DNA of 64,000 bases from Escherichia coli (GTDB lineage: Bacteria > Pseudomonadota > Gammaproteobacteria > Enterobacterales > Enterobacteriaceae): assembly GCF_009931435.1 (NCBI RefSeq), contig NZ_CP043414.1; one strand, given 5' to 3'. This document shows, piece by piece, positions 26,622 through 56,050 of the stretch. Numbering within the stretch: the first letter of the stretch is position 1; every line of letters begins with the position of its first letter. The position numbers and the translations under genes were made by a program. The notes below the pieces were generated by a model. It made no database searches and was not told where the DNA came from. It saw only the letters and a list, made by a program, of their open reading frames with translations.

Positions 26622-27213
26622 TAGTATTCTGGCTAAAATCTATTGTCGGGGCTTTACTCACAGCGGCGACATCATCCGGCAAATAATTTTTCTTTGGTGT
26701 GTAATCCATGACTTTTGCGGTTAACACTGCGGGGAATTTGCGGATAGTGACATTATATTGTTCGATGGCTTTAATATATCTTCCTCGCGCAACGGCAATT
26801 CGATTTTCACTTCCTTCGAGCTGTACCATCAAATTTTGATAGAGTTCCTGGGCCTTTAGCTCAGGGTAACGTTCACTAATTATCGTTAACTGACCGAGAG
26901 TGCGAGACACCTGCGCCTGAGCTTGTTGCCAGGTTTGTAATTTTTGTTCATCTCCCGGAGTTTGCTGAAGAGCGTTACTGGCGCGATTAGCCTGACTACG
27001 TGCCAATGTTACGGCTTCCAGTACCTCTTGTTCATGGCTGGAATAACCTTTAATACTGGCGACAAGATTAGGAATAAGATCGGCGCGACGTTGATATTGA
27101 TTTAATACCTCAGACCAGGAAGCGTTAACCTGCTCATCATAGGTTTGAATATCGTTATATCCACAGCCTGATAAATTGAAAATAAATATAATTACGATGA
27201 ATGTTCTGAGCAT
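26611..27213 (-). CDS. lemA: LemA-family lipoprotein
   Basis: 200-aa ORF MLRTFIVIIFIFNLSGCGYNDIQ... with lipobox LSGC and LemA-like coiled region; first gene of a four-gene minus-strand operon. Confidence 0.8.
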   Translation of the reverse strand: MLRTFIVIIFIFNLSGCGYNDIQTYDEQVNASWSEVLNQYQRRADLIPNLVASIKGYSSHEQEVLEAVTLARSQANRASNALQQTPGDEQKLQTWQQAQAQVSRTLGQLTIISERYPELKAQELYQNLMVQLEGSENRIAVARGRYIKAIEQYNVTIRKFPAVLTAKVMDYTPKKNYLPDDVAAVSKAPTIDFSQNTNAH

Positions 27214-27385
27214 GGTTAAATCCCTTTTAATTAATTCCTTAAAACATAATACGCCACTTCATTTTATTCTTTATGATCTAATCCACTTTTTGCCTTAAAC
27301 CTGCCTGTAACAGAATGTTAATAAGGCATGATTGTTGTGGCAGGATCTGCAATAATTAACAATTATCCACTTCACAGAGAATGCT

Positions 27386-28057
27386 ATGCAGTACCCGATT
27401 AACGAGATGTTCCAGACCCTGCAAGGTGAGGGTTACTTTACCGGCGTCCCCGCCATTTTTATTCGTTTACAGGGATGCCCGGTCGGCTGTGCCTGGTGCG
27501 ACACCAAACACACCTGGGAAAAGCTTGAGGATCGGGAAGTCTCCCTTTTCAGCATTCTGGCGAAGACCAAAGAGAGTGATAAGTGGGGGGCGGCGAGCAG
27601 TGAAGATTTGCTGGCTGTCATTGGTCGTCAGGGATACACCGCGCGGCATGTGGTGATTACGGGTGGTGAGCCTTGCATTCATGATTTGCTGCCACTGACT
27701 GACCTGCTCGAAAAGAACGGTTTTAGCTGCCAGATCGAAACCAGCGGTACTCATGAAGTACGCTGCACGCCGAATACCTGGGTTACCGTATCGCCAAAGC
27801 TGAACATGCGCGGCGGCTATGAAGTGTTGTCACAGGCACTGGAGCGAGCCAACGAAATCAAGCATCCAGTGGGACGCGTACGTGATATTGAAGCACTGGA
27901 TGAACTACTGGCAACGCTGACCGATGATAAACCACGAGTCATTGCACTGCAGCCGATTAGCCAAAAGGATGATGCCACACGTTTGTGCATTGAAACCTGC
28001 ATTGCGCGCAACTGGCGTTTGTCGATGCAAACACATAAATATTTAAATATTGCCTGA
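27386..28057 (+). CDS. queE: 7-carboxy-7-deazaguanine synthase (radical SAM)
   Basis: 223-aa ORF MQYPINEMFQTLQGEGYFTGVPAIFIRLQGCPVGCAWCDTKHTW... with CxxxCxxC radical-SAM cluster motif. Confidence 0.93.
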   Translation: MQYPINEMFQTLQGEGYFTGVPAIFIRLQGCPVGCAWCDTKHTWEKLEDREVSLFSILAKTKESDKWGAASSEDLLAVIGRQGYTARHVVITGGEPCIHDLLPLTDLLEKNGFSCQIETSGTHEVRCTPNTWVTVSPKLNMRGGYEVLSQALERANEIKHPVGRVRDIEALDELLATLTDDKPRVIALQPISQKDDATRLCIETCIARNWRLSMQTHKYLNIA

Positions 28058-28226
28058 TTAAACATTTATAAGCGTTATAAATGGGTGGAACCTGTAAAGA
28101 CTTCTGCTCATTTATATTCTTTGTCGCCTCTGAAAAACCTCCATTTTGCCCGTCCTGGACTAATCATTATCATTCTCTACAAATTCTCTGGCGTTAATTT
28201 TTCGCTGGAGTGAAAATTATTGCAGT

Positions 28227-28395
28227 GAAGTTTGGTAGATTTTAGTGGGTATAGAGTTATCTTAAACATTTACCTTTTTAATCAATGGATTAAGTGTTCT
28301 TTAACATAATGGATGTGTTGTTTGTGTGATCCTGTAAAGTTGGTAGATTGTGACTGGCTTAAAAAATCATTAATTAATAATAGGTTATGTTTAGA
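28227..28395 (+). promoter_or_regulatory. CRISPR leader of the queE-proximal array
   Basis: AT-rich; AGTTGGTAGATTGT motif at 28339-28352, 43 bp before repeat 1, and a related TTTGGTAGATTTT at 28231-28243. Confidence 0.7.
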
Positions 28396-29218
28396 GAGTT
28401 CCCCGCGCCAGCGGGGATAAACCGGCGGTAAAATTGTTGCTACCGTCTGGCCCTTGCGAGTTCCCCGCGCCAGCGGGGATAAACCGACGGTGCAGGATCT
28501 GTAATTCTTGCTCGCGATGAGTTCCCCGCGCCAGCGGGGATAAACCGAGTTATCAGGATTATTCCCGCTCCGCCGCCAGGAGTTCCCCGCGCCAGCGGGG
28601 ATAAACCGTCGTTTTTGTGGTGGGAGTGTGCGGATTGGTAGAGTTCCCCGCGCCAGCGGGGATAAACCGGCTGACATTGTCAGCTATAACCTTACAATGT
28701 GGAGTTCCCCGCGCCAGCGGGGATAAACCGACGTCCCGCTATTTCCTGGACAGTGTGTAGCGGAGTTCCCCGCGCCAGCGGGGATAAACCGGCGGCGCTA
28801 ACGTGATAATCACGATCAATTATGAGTTCCCCGCGCCAGCGGGGATAAACCGCGGGCGTTAACCTTTTTATAGGCATCTTCCTTGAGTTCCCCGCGCCAG
28901 CGGGGATAAACCGGCTTGCAGCAGCTGCGCCAACATCTGAATACGGAGTTCCCCGCGCCAGCGGGGATAAACCGCTTTTTCCCGTGACAAGATCCAGTTA
29001 ACTGTTGAGTTCCCCGCGCCAGCGGGGATAAACCGCATCACTGGACGCCCATTTGAATAACTCACAGGAGTTCCCCGCGCCAGCGGGGATAAACCGATTC
29101 AGCAAATAGCGAATTTCATAAATATGATGTGTTCCCCGCGCCAGCGGGGATAAACCGTACGTTAAACGCCATCTGTCATGGGTCGTCATGTGTTCCCCGC
29201 GCCAGCGGGGATAAACCA
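28396..29218 (+). CRISPR. type I-E CRISPR array: 14 repeats, 13 spacers (32-33 bp)
   Basis: 29-bp repeat GAGTTCCCCGCGCCAGCGGGGATAAACCG at 28396, 28458, 28519, 28580, 28641, 28702, 28763, 28824, 28885, 28946, 29007, 29068; last two repeats (29129, 29190) are GTGTT variants and the final one ends ...AAACCA. Confidence 0.97.
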
Positions 29219-29671
29219 CCATATAACCCGTTATCTCTTTCTCAAGTTTTTATATTAGCTGTACTTGTAATAAGCAACATATCCACATAACACCTCATGT
29301 TCAAAATAGTTCCCCATGCCAGATAAGTTCACAATTATCGATACAAAAAATCAAATTTAATCAAAGTGTTATATGTATAATCCTTAAACCGTTAAGAAAT
29401 TTTAATATATTATTTTTTTAATATTAATTAATGCCTGTTAATTTTTTCTTTAGAATAACAGTGTATTTTTTAAGCTTGTTATTCATTGATTAAGTAATAA
29501 ATCTGGAAGTTTGTCTTTGTTTTGAGGCTAATGAGTGGTTTTACATAACCGCCTCTATACGCTGTTGATGAATAGTTCTTATGAATAAAGATATCCAGTT
29601 CATACTTTAAGTGAAAATTGATAAAGTGCGATTCGTATTGTCTTTTATTCTAAAGACATCGAGTGTAGTTA

Positions 29672-29809
29672 ATATTCCTTGTAAAAACAGGGATAAACCG
29701 AACTAGTTAAAGTTTTTATTATGTTCCCTGCATCAGCGGGGATAAACCGGACTTGTTATCATTTTTTAAGTTGTCGAACTTATGTTCCCCGCGCCAGCGG
29801 GGATAACCA
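29672..29809 (+). CRISPR. degenerate mini-array remnant (about 3 decayed repeats, one clear 32-bp spacer)
   Basis: TTCCTTGTAAAAACAGGGATAAACCG (ends 29700), ATGTTCCCTGCATCAGCGGGGATAAACCG (29721-29749), 32-bp spacer 29750-29781, ATGTTCCCCGCGCCAGCGGGGATAACC (29782-29808). Confidence 0.75.
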
Positions 29810-29855
29810 TTCAGGTATGTTCAGGCCGGGCAGTTTCCCGCCCGGCCTTCCTCAC

Positions 29856-31334
29856 TTACGCATTCGACCAGCTCTGGATCGAATCTGCATTCCCCAACTC
29901 ACCATGCATCACTTCATACGATTTTTTCAGGATCACATCAGTGTGTTTGGTTAGGTCTTTGAAAATGCCTTTATTCATCGCGTCGTAGCGTTTGGCATTG
30001 CTCTCAATCGGCATAAAGATATCTTTCACGCGAACCATTTTGTCGACAGCCGTTGCGTAATCCGGGTATAGCCCCAGACCTATCGCTGTATTAATCGCGG
30101 CCCCCAGACTTGCGCAACCGTTAATGGCGTTACGGCGTGCCGGAAGGTTGAACACGTCGGCAAAAATCTGCATAAACAGATCGCTGTTCGAACCACCGCC
30201 AGTAATGATCACATGTTTCGCAAAGTGATTCATTTCATGACACATATTGTCGTAATTGTTCTTCAGCGTCAGCGCCACGCTTTCCAGTATCGAACGATAA
30301 ATCCATGCGTAATCCATGCTGGAATCAAAGCCGATCATAATTCCGCGTTTGTACGGTTCCCACGGATTGGTCAGCCAGTCCAGCACCGTCATCAGACCAT
30401 TACAGCCAGGCGGCACACAACAAGCTTTTTTGTTGAGCAAATCTTCCGGTGAAAGATCCTGCGCCCTGGCATCCTGAATTAACGATTCGCCTAGCATGTC
30501 GCGCAGCCAACTCACCGTCCACATACCTTTTCGAATACCATAACCTTCATACAGCAAGGTTTCCGGAATAGAAGACATGATCGGCCAGTACGCAACCGGA
30601 TCTTTCGGCAGTGCTTTGCCGTTCATCATCAACGCGATGTAGGTACCAAGAGAAATTACCGCCGTTTCATCATCCAGTAACCCTGCTCCCAGTGCTTCTA
30701 CCGGTTTATCACTGGTGGTACAAACAACGGGCAGTCCAACCGGGAAATGTGTCGCCAGCGCGGCTTGTGGTGTGATATGCCCAAGTACAGTGCCCGGCAT
30801 TTGCACATCAAAAAGCATCTGTCGGGGAATATTAAACTTCTCCATTACCGCGGTATCTTCGCTCCATGCCCAGGTCTTATAATCCACCGGCCACTGACCA
30901 AAATAGTTGGCGATATTGTCTTTAAACTCGCCGGTTAAACGGTGTGTCAGATAACCTGAAAAAGAGGTGACATATGCCACATCAGGATTGATGTGCTCGT
31001 AGGGACGTGTTACGCGTGCATCCTGCCAGCTAATCAACGGCGCAGCTGGCGTGCCATCGGCTTTCAATAACGCACGGCAGCAACGGATAGATCCCAGACC
31101 AATGCCGACAATATCTTCTTTATTCCCGGCAAACTGGCTCATCAAATCGTGACCAGCAAAACATAATGATGCCCATAAATCATCGTCAGGATGTTCTGCG
31201 GTATCGGCATCTGGAGTGTGCATCGGTTGTAATAAGCCTTTGCCTTCGCAAACCACGTTACCTTCCAGATCGTACATCACCACTTTTGTGCTCTGACTTC
31301 CGCCATCAATCCCTATGATGTATTTTTTCGACAT
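29856..31334 (-). CDS. ygcE: FGGY-family sugar (pentulose/hexulose-type) kinase
   Basis: 492-aa ORF MSKKYIIGIDGGSQSTKVVMYDLEGNVV... (FGGY N-terminal signature). Confidence 0.88.
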   Translation of the reverse strand: MSKKYIIGIDGGSQSTKVVMYDLEGNVVCEGKGLLQPMHTPDADTAEHPDDDLWASLCFAGHDLMSQFAGNKEDIVGIGLGSIRCCRALLKADGTPAAPLISWQDARVTRPYEHINPDVAYVTSFSGYLTHRLTGEFKDNIANYFGQWPVDYKTWAWSEDTAVMEKFNIPRQMLFDVQMPGTVLGHITPQAALATHFPVGLPVVCTTSDKPVEALGAGLLDDETAVISLGTYIALMMNGKALPKDPVAYWPIMSSIPETLLYEGYGIRKGMWTVSWLRDMLGESLIQDARAQDLSPEDLLNKKACCVPPGCNGLMTVLDWLTNPWEPYKRGIMIGFDSSMDYAWIYRSILESVALTLKNNYDNMCHEMNHFAKHVIITGGGSNSDLFMQIFADVFNLPARRNAINGCASLGAAINTAIGLGLYPDYATAVDKMVRVKDIFMPIESNAKRYDAMNKGIFKDLTKHTDVILKKSYEVMHGELGNADSIQSWSNA

Positions 31335-46071: not shown

Positions 46072-46139
46072 CCACCACGCGGGGGTAAAACCCCGCGTAT
46101 TGAATTGTGATGGTTTGGTCTCCTGCACCCTTTTTTTCA

Positions 46140-46309
46140 TTTATATTGTTTTTGTGAATATTATGCCTGTGTTTATTATTTATATATATCACAGATGAAA
46201 ATCATTGAATTATTCATAATGTAAATATTTTATTGAACGATATATATCACAGATAATTTTTAATATATGCGTAAATATCCTTTAAGTTTTACTGAAGGAT
46301 AAAAACATT
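46140..46309 (+). promoter_or_regulatory. AT-rich cas3 upstream region with 15-bp direct repeat
   Basis: ATATATATCACAGAT at 46182-46196 and 46240-46254 within a strongly AT-rich tract immediately upstream of the cas3 start. Confidence 0.45.
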
Positions 46310-48967
46310 GTGACTTTCTTTGATTTCTGGGGAAAAACCCGACGTGGCGAGAAAGAGGGTGGCGACGATTATCACCTTCTTTGCTGGCATTCGCTGGATG
46401 TAGCCGCGATAGGCTATTTAATGGTCAAAAACAACTGTTTCGGGCTGGCTGACTATTTTCGTCAATTAGGTTTCGCTGACACGGATCAGGCAGCACAATT
46501 TTTCGCCTGGTTGTTGTGCTGGCACGATACTGGAAAATTTGCCCGCTCATTTCAGCAACTTTACCTGCACCCACAACTCAAGGTTCCGGAAGGCGCAAGA
46601 AAGAATTACGAAAAGATCTCTCATTCAACGCTGGGTTACTGGTTGTGGCATCATTATTTAATTGAATGTGAAGAGTTGCTTCCTTCATCTTCACTCTCTT
46701 TGCGCAAACTTAAACGAGTAATAGATATGTGGATGCCCGTGACGACCGGGCATCATGGTCGGCCTCCTGACCGTATCGATGAACTGGACAACTTTCTGCC
46801 TGAAGACAAAGCTGCCGCACGGGATTTTCTCCTTGAAATCAAGGTACTGTTTCCGCTCATCGAGATCCCTACATTCTGGGATGATGACGAGGGCGTTGAA
46901 CTTATAAAACATTTTTCCTGGTATATCTCTGCAACCGTCGTACTCGCAGACTGGACGGGATCGTCAACGCGGTTTTTTCCACGCGTTGCACAGGCAATGG
47001 ATATTAAAGATTACTGGCAGAAGGCTTTAGTTCAGGCTCAAAACGCATTAACCGTCTTTCCCCCAAAAGCAGAAAGCGCGCCTTTCACTGGAATTAATAC
47101 GCTGTTTCCTTTTATTGAGAACCCAACACCGTTACAGCAAAAGGTGTTGGATCTGGATATCAGCCAGCCAGGACCACAGTTGTTTATTCTGGAAGATGTG
47201 ACTGGCGCAGGTAAAACAGAAGCGGCGCTTATCCTGGCGCACAGGTTGATGTCTGCGGGGAAAGCACAGGGTTTGTTTTTTGGCCTGCCAACAATGGCAA
47301 CGGCCAATGCCATGTACGATAGGCTGGTAAAAACCTGGCTTGCTTTCTATTCGCCACAATCCCGCCCCAGCCTGGTGCTGGCACACAGCGCTCGTTCGCT
47401 AATGGATCGCTTTAACGCATCGCTGTGGTCTGGTGATTTTGTGGGGTCAGAAGAACCGGATGAACAAGCGTTCAGTCAGGGATGTGCGGCCTGGTTTGCT
47501 GACAGTAACAAGAAGGCGTTGCTGGCTGAAATTGGCGTCGGCACGCTGGATCAGGCGATGATGGCGGTGATGCCGTTCAAACATAATAATCTGCGGCTTC
47601 TGGGGCTGAGTAACAAAATCCTGCTAGCCGATGAGATCCACGCCTGTGACGCTTATATGTCGTGCATTCTTGAAGGGCTGATCGAGCGGCAGGCGCGTGG
47701 CGGAAACAGCGTTATTTTGCTTTCTGCTACGTTGTCTCAACAGCAGCGTGACAAACTCGTCGCCGCCTTTGCGCGTGGTGCAGAGGGCCAGCAAGAAGCT
47801 CCGTTGCTGGAAAAAGATGATTATCCCTGGCTGACGCATGTCACGAAATCCGATGTGCATTCGCACCGGGTAGCGACGCGCAAAGACGTTGAGCGCAGCG
47901 TGAGTGTGGGTTGGCTTCATAGCGAACAAGAGTGTATTGCGCGTATCGAATCGGCGGTAAGTCAGGGGAAATGCATCGCCTGGATTCGGAATTCTGTCGA
48001 TGACGCCATCCAGGTTCATCGTCAGCTGCTTGCCCGCGGCGTCATTCCTGCTTCCAGCCTTTCACTTTTTCATAGCCGCTTTGCTTTCAGCGATCGCCAG
48101 CGAATTGAAACGGAGACGCTGGCACGCTTTGGTAAAGAAGACTGTTCACAGCGTGCCGGAAAAGTCCTCATTTGTACTCAGGTCCTGGAGCAGAGCGTCG
48201 ACTGCGACCTGGACGAAATGATTTCCGACCTTGCCCCTGTTGATTTACTGATCCAGCGAGCAGGGCGATTACAGCGACATATCCGCGATATTAATGGTCA
48301 GTTAAAGCGTGACGGTAAAGACGAGCGTCACCCTCCTGTATTGCTGATTCTGGCCCCCGTCTGGAACGACTCTCCGGGTGAAGAATGGTTTGGCTGTGCC
48401 ATGCGTAACAGTGCATTTGTCTATCCCGATCATGGGCGAATCTGGTTGACGCAGCGTGTGCTGCGTGAACAAGGCGCGATTCAGATGCCACACTCAGCCC
48501 GGCTTCTGATTGAATCAGTCTACGGTGAGGACGTGGTAATGCCGGAAGGGTTTGCCCGCAGCGAGCAGGAGCAAGTGGGCAAATACTACTGCGATCGTTC
48601 AATGGCTAATAAGTTTGTGCTGAACTTCAGGCCCGGCTATGCCGCCAATATCAACGATTACCTCCCGGAAAAACTGTCGACACGTCTGGCTGAAGAGTCT
48701 GTTTCCCTGTGGCTGGCTAGCTGTATTGGCGGTGTGGTGAAGCCTTATGCCACCGGTGCACACGCATGGGAAATGAGCGTTGTCAGAGTGCGCCAAAGCT
48801 GGTGGAAAAAACATCGGGATAAGTTTTCTTTACTGGAAGGGGATGCGTTCAGGCAGTGGTGCGTTGAACAGCGGCAAGATCCGGAGATGGCAAACGTGAT
48901 TTTGGTCACCGATGACGAAAGTTGTGGATATTCGGCTACGGAGGGATTGATTGGCAAGGTTGGTTGA
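46310..48967 (+). CDS. cas3: Cas3 HD-nuclease/helicase (type I-E)
   Basis: 885-aa ORF (GTG start, AAGGA RBS); HD motif ...LLCWHDTGKF..., Walker A VTGAGKTEA, DEIH box LLADEIHACD, then helicase C-terminal region. Confidence 0.93.
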   Translation: MTFFDFWGKTRRGEKEGGDDYHLLCWHSLDVAAIGYLMVKNNCFGLADYFRQLGFADTDQAAQFFAWLLCWHDTGKFARSFQQLYLHPQLKVPEGARKNYEKISHSTLGYWLWHHYLIECEELLPSSSLSLRKLKRVIDMWMPVTTGHHGRPPDRIDELDNFLPEDKAAARDFLLEIKVLFPLIEIPTFWDDDEGVELIKHFSWYISATVVLADWTGSSTRFFPRVAQAMDIKDYWQKALVQAQNALTVFPPKAESAPFTGINTLFPFIENPTPLQQKVLDLDISQPGPQLFILEDVTGAGKTEAALILAHRLMSAGKAQGLFFGLPTMATANAMYDRLVKTWLAFYSPQSRPSLVLAHSARSLMDRFNASLWSGDFVGSEEPDEQAFSQGCAAWFADSNKKALLAEIGVGTLDQAMMAVMPFKHNNLRLLGLSNKILLADEIHACDAYMSCILEGLIERQARGGNSVILLSATLSQQQRDKLVAAFARGAEGQQEAPLLEKDDYPWLTHVTKSDVHSHRVATRKDVERSVSVGWLHSEQECIARIESAVSQGKCIAWIRNSVDDAIQVHRQLLARGVIPASSLSLFHSRFAFSDRQRIETETLARFGKEDCSQRAGKVLICTQVLEQSVDCDLDEMISDLAPVDLLIQRAGRLQRHIRDINGQLKRDGKDERHPPVLLILAPVWNDSPGEEWFGCAMRNSAFVYPDHGRIWLTQRVLREQGAIQMPHSARLLIESVYGEDVVMPEGFARSEQEQVGKYYCDRSMANKFVLNFRPGYAANINDYLPEKLSTRLAEESVSLWLASCIGGVVKPYATGAHAWEMSVVRVRQSWWKKHRDKFSLLEGDAFRQWCVEQRQDPEMANVILVTDDESCGYSATEGLIGKVG

Positions 48968-54924: not shown

Positions 54925-56050
54925 GTGTTCCCCGCGCCAGCGGGGATAAACCGTGGATTATGACGCCAGAGAGCTTCCTGTTTGCGTGTTCCCCGCGCCA
55001 GCGGGGATAAACCGCTGGCTAATAACATCCCACTGAATATTATTTCGTGTTCCCCGCGCCAGCGGGGATAAACCGAGGTGTGGCATGCGGGGAATTATGA
55101 TCCGGTAGTGTTCCCCGCGCCAGCGGGGATAAACCGTGACAACGGCCGGCCGCTCTTTTTGCGGTCATGTGTTCCCCGCGCCAGCGGGGATAAACCGATC
55201 ATCGGCATCATCTCGTGATACTCATCCGGCGTGTTCCCCGCGCCAGCGGGGATAAACCGCCCAGGCTTTACGTGAGCTGGCGGATGTGGCCGTGTTCCCC
55301 GCGCCAGCGGGGATAAACCATACGGTCAAGCGATATCAGGGGTACTGTGTCGTGTTCCCCGCGCCAGCGGGGATAAACCGGGCGCCGCATCTTTATCGTA
55401 AAGCATGTAAAGGTGTTCCCCGCGCCAGCGGGGATAAACCGACCGCTCACACCCAGACAAGCGCCACTAACGTGTGTTCCCCGCGCCAGCGGGGATAAAC
55501 CGAACGCCGCATCAGCTAAATACGCTAAAAAAATGTGTTCCCCGCGCCAGCGGGGATAAACCGCGGCTGATACTCAGGAGCAGGCCAGAGAGCGTGTGTT
55601 CCCCGCGCCAGCGGGGATAAACCGTACCACCTGTGTATTGAGTTACGTCGCCGGGGGTGTTCCCCGCGCCAGCGGGGATAAACCGGAGCTTCATCGGTGG
55701 TTCTGGGAGCAACGGGAGTGTTCCCCGCGCCAGCGGGGATAAACCGGCACAAGTGACTACATCAAGGATGGGGAATGGGTGTTCCCCGCGCCAGCGGGGA
55801 TAAACCGATTAACATTGCAATTGAATTGACGCGTATGAGGTGTTCCCCGCGCCAGCGGGGATAAACCGCAGGCAGCACGGCGGGTTTTGCCCGGATATTT
55901 GTGTTCCCCGCGCCAGCGGGGATAAACCGCAAAACCAATAGGTGCTTTCCACATTGCAGAAGTGTTCCCCGCGCCAGCGGGGATAAACCGCTCTCGGTTC
56001 TGGGGTACTGTTACCCATAACTGAGCTCCCCCGCGTCAGCGGGGGAACTC
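54925..56050 (+). CRISPR. type I-E CRISPR array: 19 repeats (18 canonical plus degenerate terminal), 18 spacers
   Basis: 29-bp repeat GTGTTCCCCGCGCCAGCGGGGATAAACCG at 54925, 54986, 55047, 55108, 55169, 55231, 55292, 55352, 55413, 55474, 55535, 55596, 55657, 55718, 55779, 55840, 55901, 55962; terminal degenerate GAGCTCCCCCGCGTCAGCGGGGGAACTC (56023-56050); spacers 31-33 bp. Confidence 0.97.

What the first reader, a model, noticed from the sequence alone, without database searches (positions are those of the whole stretch)
29219..29671. Extremely AT-rich 450-bp tract between the two CRISPR elements
The 29330-29520 core is about 80% A+T, with homopolymeric runs and no credible ORF. It may be a vestigial leader for the decayed mini-array, an H-NS nucleation site, or the location of a small transcript.
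Basis: seen in the sequence. Interest (0 to 1): 0.3.

Follow-up and report, generated by a model that had tools for sequence, protein, structure and literature searches.

The report
AT-rich spacer splitting E. coli CRISPR-II
This is the already-described 0.5-kb AT-rich, H-NS-bound "promoter island" that splits the second E. coli type I-E CRISPR array into CRISPR2.3 and the CRISPR2.2 mini-array; the one new point is that its last 118 bases and the mini-array form a nearly invariant block of unknown function.

Summary
Positions 29219-29671 are 72% A+T, with an 80% core, and this is the most AT-rich stretch in the window. No ORF there is longer than 31 codons. The window is the E. coli CRISPR-II locus: queE, leader, CRISPR2.3, tract, CRISPR2.2, then ygcE.

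The tract is already in the literature under two names. It is the ~0.5-kb AT-rich non-coding sequence that splits CRISPR2. It is also promoter island 2901670_347 (ygcE/queE) of K-12, which binds RNA polymerase and is H-NS-bound in all three published ChIP data sets.

The vestigial-leader idea fits the geometry but fails a profile test built from four real I-E leaders. A small transcript has been predicted but remains unverified.

New detail found here: the tract is a mosaic.
- The first ~117 nt are two decayed repeat-spacer units.
- Positions 29336-29553 are fast-evolving AT-rich DNA.
- Positions 29554-29793 (the last 118 nt plus most of CRISPR2.2) are at least 99% identical in 4000 of 4162 genomes, while both flanks are polymorphic.

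The function of that invariant block is unknown. Overall the finding is already known and of modest interest.

The parts
28058..28395 (+). Leader of CRISPR2.3, given for context. It is the true I-E leader, with the motif GTTGGTAGATTGT at -57..-44 and a boxA-like GTTCTTTAACAT at 28296-28307.
   Evidence: The repeat-proximal ~60 nt are almost invariant in 11 E. coli strains and in E69, while the distal part is variable.
28396..29218 (+). CRISPR2.3 array: 14 type I-E repeats spaced at 61 nt.
29219..29335 (+). Two decayed repeat-spacer units at the trailer end of CRISPR2.3. Layout: spacer 29219-29250, fossil repeat ~29251-29279, spacer remnant 29280-29307, fossil repeat 29308-29332 (TAGTTCCCCATGCCAG..ATAAG).
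   Evidence: the 29308 remnant scores 22 against a shuffle maximum of 18; the diverged Escherichia genome E69 keeps GTTCCCTGTATCAGC..ATAAATAAC in phase, one spacer length after the last intact repeat, at the position of 29251-29279. That E69 match scores 14, below the shuffle 95th percentile of 16, so its support comes from the exact phase rather than the score.
29336..29553 (.). AT-rich, fast-evolving core. It forms the bulk of K-12 'promoter island' 2901670_347, which maps to window ~29236-29581 and is bound by H-NS and RNA polymerase in K-12.
   Evidence: for composition and polymorphism: 15.6 non-singleton segregating sites per 100 nt, and 55-70% identity to E69. for the literature mapping and H-NS/RNAP occupancy.
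29554..29793 (+). Nearly invariant 240-nt block: the last 118 nt of the tract, then CRISPR2.2 repeat 1, spacer 1, repeat 2, spacer 2 and the start of repeat 3. Function unknown.
   Evidence: zero variable sites in 11 diverse E. coli strains; at least 99% identity in 4000 of 4162 genomes, against 68 of 4150 for the adjacent 220 nt; 0-1.7 non-singleton segregating sites per 100 nt against 13-18 in the flanks. P ~3e-12 for such a gap under random placement of variable sites.
29640..29657 (+). Hairpin GTCTTT-TATTCT-AAAGAC inside the invariant block.
   Evidence: in the minimum-free-energy fold. By my reading of the alignments, the four E69 substitutions all keep pairing on the + strand RNA: one U-A to C-G, and two G-C to G-U. 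RNAalifold on two sequences was inconclusive.
29672..29810 (+). CRISPR2.2 mini-array. Repeat 1 at 29672-29700 is very degenerate. Spacer 1 at 29701-29720 is 20 nt. Repeat 2 is at 29721-29749. Spacer 2 is at 29750-29781. The terminal truncated repeat is at 29782-29810.
   Evidence: [quoted passage not shown] The terminal repeat GGGGATAACCA is shared by arrays that lack the tract.
29824..29848 (.). GC-rich hairpin GGCCGGGCAGTTTCCCGCCCGGCC just downstream of the convergent gene ygcE (29856-31334, minus strand).

Best explanation
[quoted passage not shown] It is a mosaic of three parts, not one element.

(1) Its first ~117 nt are two fossil repeat-spacer units at the trailer end of CRISPR2.3. This is shown.

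(2) Its centre (about 29336-29553) is rapidly evolving DNA of about 78-80% A+T. It carries no gene and acts as a platform for the nucleoid silencer H-NS and for non-productive RNA polymerase binding, which is what the literature calls a 'promoter island'. Occupancy is shown in K-12 by published ChIP and is inferred for this strain from 97% identity. The likely consequence is that this convergent queE/ygcE intergenic region stays transcriptionally silent. It may also stop pre-crRNA read-through from running antisense into ygcE. Both consequences are inferred.

(3) Its last 118 nt, together with the CRISPR2.2 mini-array, form a 240-nt block that is almost invariant across E. coli. It is therefore under selection, but not as a recognisable type I-E leader. 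The constraint is shown; the function is unknown.
For: Locus identity and literature names.

Composition.

Fossil repeats.

Promoter-island identity and H-NS/RNAP occupancy. The U00096.2 coordinates 2901670-2902016 map to window ~29236-29581. I checked the +1977 offset to NC_000913.3 against the neighbouring queE/yqcG island. ygcE is H-NS-bound.

No gene in the tract.

Single-copy and chromosomal, in 4163 of 5426 complete E. coli genomes, never annotated. No phage or true plasmid match.

Mosaic conservation.
Against: H-NS and RNAP occupancy were measured in K-12, not in this strain. I could read only the summary table, not the ChIP profiles, so nucleation specifically inside the tract is an inference.

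The simple sigma-70 scan finds no excess of promoter-like sites here: 5 found against 4.2 expected. A scan for the H-NS high-affinity motif is uninformative.

The silencing or insulating role is not tested.

The strong constraint on the 3' block shows that part of the tract is more than passive AT-rich filler.
Confidence: 0.6

Rival explanations
1. Vestigial or still functional leader of CRISPR2.2. In this reading the 336 non-repeat bases were once the leader of a separate array. The conserved repeat-proximal 118 nt would be its promoter or integration-signal region.
For: The tract lies directly 5' of same-orientation repeats. It is AT-rich like real leaders. The non-repeat part is 336 nt, against 338 nt for leader 2.3. 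Its conservation pattern, with a variable distal part and a conserved repeat-proximal part, parallels leader 2.3. An anchored ungapped comparison with leader 2.3 gives 45% identity, p = 0.011, which is about what two true leaders give (46%). TTGATAAAGTG sits where real leaders have TTGGTAGATTG.
Against: Smith-Waterman similarity to leaders 2.3 and 2.1 is at chance, z = 0.1-1.1. A profile of four real I-E leaders scores the tract end at -33.6 bits, p = 0.43, while true leaders score +18 to +42. CRISPR2.2 never gains spacers. Its first repeat is the most degenerate one. Outgroup Escherichia arrays run from leader 2.3 straight to the same terminal repeat, so CRISPR2.2 looks like the old trailer of a single array.
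Confidence: 0.15
2. The tract, or its invariant 3' block, encodes an independent small RNA on either strand, or an orphan crRNA unit with its own upstream control region. The predicted sRNA HB_171 is one candidate.
For: Near-invariance of 29554-29793 across more than 4000 genomes while both flanks vary. A hairpin at 29640-29657 keeps pairing through four substitutions in E69. Repeats 2 and 3 keep a Cas6e-type hairpin and the ATAAACCG handle around the 32-nt spacer 2 (sequence inspection). An sRNA has been predicted in this intergenic region.
Against: No Rfam hit. No sigma-70-like promoter or intrinsic terminator in the block. No RNA is annotated in K-12. Spacer 2 has no phage or plasmid target. 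E69 has deleted repeat 1-3'/spacer 1/repeat 2-5'. The RNAalifold signal is equally 'unbroken' on both strands. Promoter islands are reported to be nearly silent.
Confidence: 0.15
3. The whole 453 nt is only a decayed stretch of array (old repeats and spacers) with no function. In this reading the conservation reflects hitch-hiking or a recent recombinational sweep.
For: Two in-phase fossil repeats at the 5' end. Repeat degeneracy increases towards the centre from both sides. Rare 96%-identity variants of the block exist.
Against: No repeat remnant above chance lies between 29336 and 29671. A composition of 80% A+T is far from that of spacers and repeats. A 240-nt monomorphic block flanked on both sides by 13-18 common polymorphisms per 100 nt, across phylogroups, is not expected from neutral decay.
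Confidence: 0.08
4. Remnant of a mobile element or other foreign DNA that inserted into a continuous CRISPR-II array and was then silenced by H-NS.
For: The tract is absent from E. albertii, E. whittamii, another Escherichia sp. and about 23% of E. coli. In those genomes the array runs uninterrupted to the same terminal repeat. The AT-rich, H-NS-bound character is typical of acquired DNA. IS insertions do occur here.
Against: No terminal inverted repeats or target duplication. Single copy in every genome. No similarity to any phage or true plasmid. A diverged allele in the E69 lineage shows the tract is old. Loss by repeat-repeat recombination explains the absences equally well, and unit deletions of this kind are seen.
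Confidence: 0.12

Closest known systems
The ~0.5-kb sequence separating CRISPR2.2 and CRISPR2.3 in the E. coli CRISPR-II (ygcE-ygcF) locus. Nomenclature of Diez-Villasenor et al. 2010, as cited in PMC3903273, PMC4489801 and PMC10910852; also Touchon & Rocha 2010, PMC2886076.
   Same: Same locus, same flanking genes, same size, and same three-repeat CRISPR2.2 with two invariable spacers. The tract is 93-100% identical in 4163 of 5426 complete genomes.
   Different: Nothing differs; this is that sequence. In the texts I could read it is described only as 'AT-rich' or as 'non-coding, highly conserved'. Those texts do not give the fossil repeats, the polymorphic core or the invariant 3' block described here.
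Promoter island 2901670_347 ygcE(+)/queE(-), one of 78 such islands in E. coli K-12 (Shavkunov et al. 2009, PMC2731890; Panyukov & Ozoline 2013, PMC3661553).
   Same: The coordinates map onto window ~29236-29581, which is the AT core. The island is classed as 'intergenic convergent', H-NS-bound in all studies compared, RNAP-bound and nearly untranscribed.
   Different: Promoter islands are usually linked to silencing of an adjacent acquired gene. This one sits inside a CRISPR array between two convergent genes, so there is no downstream gene to silence.
Type I-E CRISPR leaders of Enterobacteriaceae: E. coli CRISPR2.1 and CRISPR2.3, and Klebsiella.
   Same: AT-rich, a few hundred bp long, directly upstream of repeats in the same orientation, with a conserved repeat-proximal part.
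   Different: It lacks the shared GTTGGTAGATTGT and TTTAGA signature (profile p = 0.43). The array downstream is frozen and its first repeat is degenerate.

Membership tests
Type I-E CRISPR leader | Lies immediately 5' of the first repeat, in the same orientation as the array | tested here: met
   The tract ends at 29671 and repeat 1 of CRISPR2.2 starts at 29672 on the + strand, like CRISPR2.3.
Type I-E CRISPR leader | Conserved repeat-proximal sequence signature shared by enterobacterial I-E leaders: GTTGGTAGATTGT at about -57..-44 and a TTTAGA junction | tested here: not met
   A PSSM from 4 leaders gives true leaders +18 to +42 bits in leave-one-out. The tract end scores -33.6, against a null of -34.3 +/- 7.1, p = 0.43. 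Smith-Waterman z is 0.1-1.1.
Type I-E CRISPR leader | The adjacent array shows leader-proximal spacer turnover between strains | tested here: not met
   CRISPR2.2 repeats 1-2 and both spacers are identical in 11 diverse strains and at least 99% identical in 4000 of 4162 genomes. The literature describes 'two invariable spacers'.
Type I-E CRISPR leader | Contains the promoter of the pre-crRNA and an IHF site used by Cas1-Cas2 | tested here: inconclusive
   The consensus scan finds no sigma-70-like site in 29554-29671. I found no WATCAANNNNTTR match by eye. There are no functional data.
Promoter island (Shavkunov/Ozoline) | Listed region of at least 300 bp with extreme density of PlatProm-predicted start points | tested here: met
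   K-12 island 2901670-2902016 (U00096.2), 'ygcE(+)/queE(-) intergenic convergent', maps to window ~29236-29581. PlatProm itself could not be run. The simple scan shows no excess.
Promoter island (Shavkunov/Ozoline) | Binds RNA polymerase and H-NS in vivo but gives little full-length RNA | not testable with these tools
   Taken from the literature for K-12. H column = 'A', meaning all ChIP studies. All 78 islands bind RNAP and produce only short oligonucleotides.
Decayed CRISPR array | Repeat remnants in phase (about 61 nt) with the neighbouring array | tested here: met
   Met for 29219-29335 only. The 29308 remnant scores 22 against a shuffle maximum of 18, and an in-phase remnant is kept in E69. 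Nothing above chance is found in 29336-29671.
Small RNA gene | Match to a described family, or a promoter plus terminator bounding a conserved structured transcript | tested here: not met
   No relevant Rfam hit at E <= 10. No promoter/terminator pair. No RNA feature in K-12. Structure conservation is inconclusive.
Small protein gene | ORF with start signals and a coding-type substitution pattern | tested here: not met
   The longest ORF is 31 codons (29611-29706), starts at GTG and has no Shine-Dalgarno sequence. Against E69 it shows 7 non-synonymous and 1 synonymous change. The 20-codon minus-strand ORF is truncated in E69.
Insertion sequence / MITE / prophage remnant | Terminal inverted repeats, target duplication, multiple copies, or similarity to mobile elements | tested here: not met
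   No terminal inverted repeats. One copy per genome. No phage hit. The only 'plasmid' hits are mislabelled 4.8-4.9-Mb chromosomes.

The most novel reading that the evidence does not exclude
The 240-nt block 29554-29793 (the last 118 nt of the tract plus CRISPR2.2) may be a selected functional unit that sits next to an H-NS island. One form would be an orphan, Cas6e-processable crRNA or small RNA with its own upstream control region and a fixed spacer serving a host function. Another would be a cis-acting boundary element for the convergent pre-crRNA and ygcE transcription units. Its species-wide invariance would then reflect purifying selection or a gene-specific sweep, not CRISPR immunity.
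Probability: 0.25. Interest if true: 0.55.

Novelty: already known. Interest (0 to 1): 0.28.

Why it matters
The tract itself adds nothing new. It is a named feature of the best-studied CRISPR locus and a catalogued H-NS/RNAP "promoter island".

It matters mainly as a caution. An AT-rich gap next to repeats is not automatically a leader, and here a profile test says it is not one.

The one loose end is the sharp contrast between a hypervariable H-NS-bound core and a nearly invariant block that includes two frozen spacers. If that block is functional, it would be a case of a fossil CRISPR unit kept for a non-immune role in E. coli. This is directly testable in K-12.

Tried and rejected
Similarity and family searches
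- Smith-Waterman comparison of the tract with leaders 2.3 and 2.1 on both strands: at chance.
- Anchored ungapped comparison: borderline, p = 0.011. It did not survive a four-leader profile test, p = 0.43.
- Rfam at E <= 10: nothing relevant.
- Sigma-70 and terminator scan: no excess and nothing in the invariant block.
- BLAST against phages and plasmids: nothing except mislabelled chromosomes.
- Protospacer search for CRISPR2.2 spacer 2 in phages and plasmids: chance-level only.
- H-NS high-affinity motif TCGATAAATT: weak, non-enriched matches.

Coding and structure
- Small-ORF reading of 29611-29706 and 29541-29603: rejected on the substitution pattern and on truncation in E69.
- RNAalifold on E. 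coli plus E69, both strands: neither strand shows broken pairs, so it is uninformative. Whole-block folding z-scores are dominated by the repeat hairpins.

Experimental data I could not reach
- The Cappable-seq TSS table is truncated at 0.96 Mb.
- H-NS ChIP supplements of Kahramanoglou 2011, Singh 2014 and Ueda 2013 are not held.
- Diez-Villasenor 2010 is not held.

Full report
**What is there**

The window is an E. coli chromosome segment. The finding lies in the CRISPR-II locus.
- queE (ygcF) ends at 28057.
- A 338-nt leader follows at 28058-28395.
- Next is a 14-repeat type I-E array at 28396-29218.
- Then comes the tract, 29219-29671.
- Then a degenerate three-repeat mini-array at 29672-29810.
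- Then a GC-rich hairpin.
- Last is the convergent gene ygcE at 29856-31334 on the minus strand.

K-12 MG1655 has the same arrangement between ygcE (b2776) and queE (b2777), with nothing annotated in between. The window also holds the cas operon and the CRISPR2.1 array at 54925-55990.

**Check of the observation**

The tract is 72.4% A+T and its 29330-29520 core is 80.1%, against 49.2% for the window. Only 0.03% of 191-nt windows are as AT-rich. The only other stretch at that level is upstream of cas3, at 46094-46345. Runs of A6, T7, T6, T6 and T5 are present. No ORF inside exceeds 31 codons.

**It is a known feature**

The literature describes the CRISPR-II locus as holding either one array (CRISPR2.2-3) or two arrays "separated by 0.5 kb" (PMC3903273). 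[quoted passage not shown] In the complete-genome collection the tract is present once per genome, always chromosomal. It occurs in 4163 of 5426 genomes at 93-100% identity and is never annotated.

The same DNA also appears in a separate literature. Shavkunov et al. 2009 list a promoter-rich cluster between the convergent genes ygcE and ygcF and mention a predicted sRNA, HB_171 (PMC2731890). Panyukov & Ozoline 2013 give its coordinates as 2901670-2902016 in U00096.2, "ygcE(+)/queE(-), intergenic convergent". They score it as H-NS-bound in all the ChIP studies they compared (PMC3661553).

The offset between U00096.2 and NC_000913.3 is +1977. I checked this against the neighbouring queE/yqcG island and the gene coordinates. 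With that offset the island maps to window ~29236-29581, which is the AT core.

According to that paper's abstract, all 78 islands bind RNA polymerase in vivo and form open complexes. They yield almost no full-length RNA, only 9-14-nt oligonucleotides. Higashi et al. 2016 list ygcE as H-NS-bound, with an unusually high dS of 0.148.

**Anatomy: the tract is a mosaic**

*(a) 5' end.* A repeat remnant, TAGTTCCCCATGCCAG..ATAAG, lies at 29308-29332. It scores 22 against a maximum of 18 in shuffles.

A diverged Escherichia genome, CP089930.1 'E69' (locus L008), carries a homologous tract. Exactly one spacer length after its last intact repeat it keeps GTTCCCTGTATCAGC..ATAAATAAC, at the position of window 29251-29279. 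Its score of 14 is below the shuffle 95th percentile of 16, so the support is its phase. I conclude that 29219-29335 is two decayed repeat-spacer units of the CRISPR2.3 trailer.

*(b) Core.* Positions 29336-29553 show no repeat remnant above chance. They have no paralogue and no phage or true plasmid match. This part is highly polymorphic.
- Among 11 diverse E. coli strains, pi reaches 0.10-0.13. For comparison, ygcE third codon positions give 0.097 and leader 2.3 gives 0.053.
- Only 68 of 4150 genomes are at least 99% identical to the window allele.
- Identity to E69 is only 55-70%, while the ygcE coding sequence is 92% identical and leader 2.3 is 94%.

*(c) 3' block.* From 29554 to 29793 there is not one variable site in the 11 strains. 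Under random placement of the 69 variable sites, P is about 3e-12 for such a gap.
- Species-wide, 29571-29790 is at least 99% identical in 4000 of 4162 genomes.
- I also looked at an independent sample of 64 metagenome contigs. Because they were found with a 25-mer inside the block, those 25 nt are invariant by construction; the rest of the block is not affected. Common polymorphisms per 100 nt were 12.8 (decayed units), 15.6 (core), 1.7 (last 118 nt of the tract), 0.0 (CRISPR2.2 through spacer 2) and 17.6 (right flank).
- Against E69, the block differs at 4-8% of sites, less than half the 19.5% at ygcE third positions.
- Rare variants exist: 96%-identity alleles and deletions of one repeat-spacer unit. 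E69 itself has fused repeats 1 and 2.

**Is it a leader?**

Several things fit: the geometry, the AT-richness, the length of the non-repeat part (336 nt against 338 nt for leader 2.3) and the pattern of a variable distal part with a conserved proximal part. Leader 2.3 shows the same pattern.

However, four real I-E leaders share GTTGGTAGATTGT at -57..-44 and a TTTAGA junction. These are CRISPR2.3, CRISPR2.1 of this strain, K-12 CRISPR-I and Klebsiella spallanzanii. A profile built from them gives each true leader +18 to +42 bits in leave-one-out. The tract end gets -33.6, which is indistinguishable from shuffles (p = 0.43). Smith-Waterman similarity is also at chance. The borderline anchored match, 45% identity with p = 0.011, is not confirmed by the profile.

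The downstream array never acquires spacers, and its first repeat is its most degenerate one. I therefore do not file the tract as a type I-E leader. A leader fossil eroded beyond recognition cannot be excluded.

**Evolutionary context**

In Citrobacter, Klebsiella, Enterobacter, Raoultella and other genera, queE lies 40-100 bp from ygcE. The whole CRISPR-II locus is therefore an insertion specific to Escherichia.

E. albertii, E. whittamii, another Escherichia sp. and the CRISPR2.2-3 type of E. coli have leader 2.3, a few repeats and the same truncated terminal repeat (GGGGATAACCA), with no tract. A further class of E. coli has the queE side replaced altogether.

CRISPR2.2 thus looks like the old trailer of a single array. 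Two histories are possible:
- the tract arose inside the array;
- the tract is ancestral and has been lost repeatedly by repeat-repeat recombination, events of the kind seen directly.

The diverged E69 allele shows that the tract predates E. coli diversification.

**What the invariant block might be**

It is not a conserved ORF. The 31-codon GTG ORF shows 7 non-synonymous and 1 synonymous change against E69, and the 20-codon minus-strand ORF is truncated there. It has no Rfam match and no recognisable promoter or terminator.

A hairpin at 29640-29657 keeps pairing on the + strand through all four E69 substitutions. With only two sequences, however, RNAalifold is uninformative on both strands.

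Repeats 2 and 3 retain the Cas6e-type hairpin and handle around the 32-nt spacer 2. A crRNA could therefore be made if the region is transcribed, for example by read-through from the CRISPR2.3 leader. That leader carries a boxA-like GTTCTTTAACAT at 28296-28307. The boxA consensus is from my own knowledge; Stringer et al. 2020, whose title and abstract opening I saw, concerns boxA-mediated antitermination of CRISPR arrays. Spacer 2 has no phage or plasmid target. The function remains unknown.

**Verdict**

- Observation: confirmed.
- Identity: already known, as the CRISPR2.2/2.3 separator and as a catalogued promoter island bound by H-NS and RNAP.
- Vestigial-leader reading: not supported by sequence.
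- Small-transcript reading: open.

The only new element is the mosaic conservation, especially the near-invariant 240-nt block. It deserves a modest follow-up in K-12.

Noticed in passing
window 28296-28307: Leader 2.3 carries a boxA-like GTTCTTTAACAT (K-12: GCTCTTTAACAT). That would fit Nus-factor antitermination of the CRISPR2.3 transcript, and hence possible read-through into the tract and CRISPR2.2.
   Followed up: partly
window 46094-46345: This is the second most AT-rich stretch of the window (about 80% A+T), just upstream of cas3 (46310-48967). In this strain cas3 and cse1 are only 45 nt apart, unlike the long H-NS-bound cas3-casA spacer of K-12. It is therefore a different cas-E variant.
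   Followed up: no
window 27100-27400: An AT-rich (66-70% A+T) region upstream of queE. The K-12 counterpart (queE/yqcG) is another listed promoter island (2903475_338). The divergent neighbours here are LemA/TPM-family genes rather than K-12's yqcG/ygcG.
   Followed up: partly
window 29856-31334 (ygcE): ygcE is unusually diverse within E. coli: third-codon-position pi is about 0.097, and identity between strains is 94-95%. That is almost as much as between Escherichia species (92-93%). Higashi 2016 lists it as H-NS-bound with dS 0.148.
   Followed up: partly
L010-L036, L082 (Citrobacter, Klebsiella, Enterobacter, Raoultella and others): In other Enterobacteriaceae queE and ygcE are convergent neighbours only 40-100 bp apart. 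The whole CRISPR-II locus is therefore an insertion specific to Escherichia. One 'E. coli'-labelled GTDB representative (L035) has no CRISPR there at all.
   Followed up: partly
L005 (NZ_CP018983.1), and the class of hits that start at query position 633: In a class of E. coli genomes (9 of the 60 sampled rows) the homology ends at the ygcE stop. The queE/CRISPR side is replaced by a carbohydrate porin and an aminoimidazole riboside kinase gene.
   Followed up: no
L008 7470-8240; L096, L097, L166; L111: Natural deletions at this locus: E69 has fused CRISPR2.2 repeats 1 and 2 (a 49-nt loss). Three metagenome contigs have lost one 61-nt repeat-spacer unit of CRISPR2.2. One contig lacks about 150 nt of the AT core. 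IS1 and IS3 insertions also occur here (L003; H34).
   Followed up: partly
window 28358-28370 and 29758-29770: Spacer 2 of CRISPR2.2 (ATCATTTTTTAAG) is 12/13 complementary to a segment of leader 2.3 (CTTAAAAAATCAT). This is at the noise level for AT-rich sequence, but I record it because both segments are invariant.
   Followed up: no
L036 10732-12224 (Klebsiella spallanzanii): A type I-E array of about 20 repeats lies a few kb from queE/ygcE. Its leader shares the GTTGGTAGAATGT and TTTAGA signature with the E. coli leaders.
   Followed up: partly
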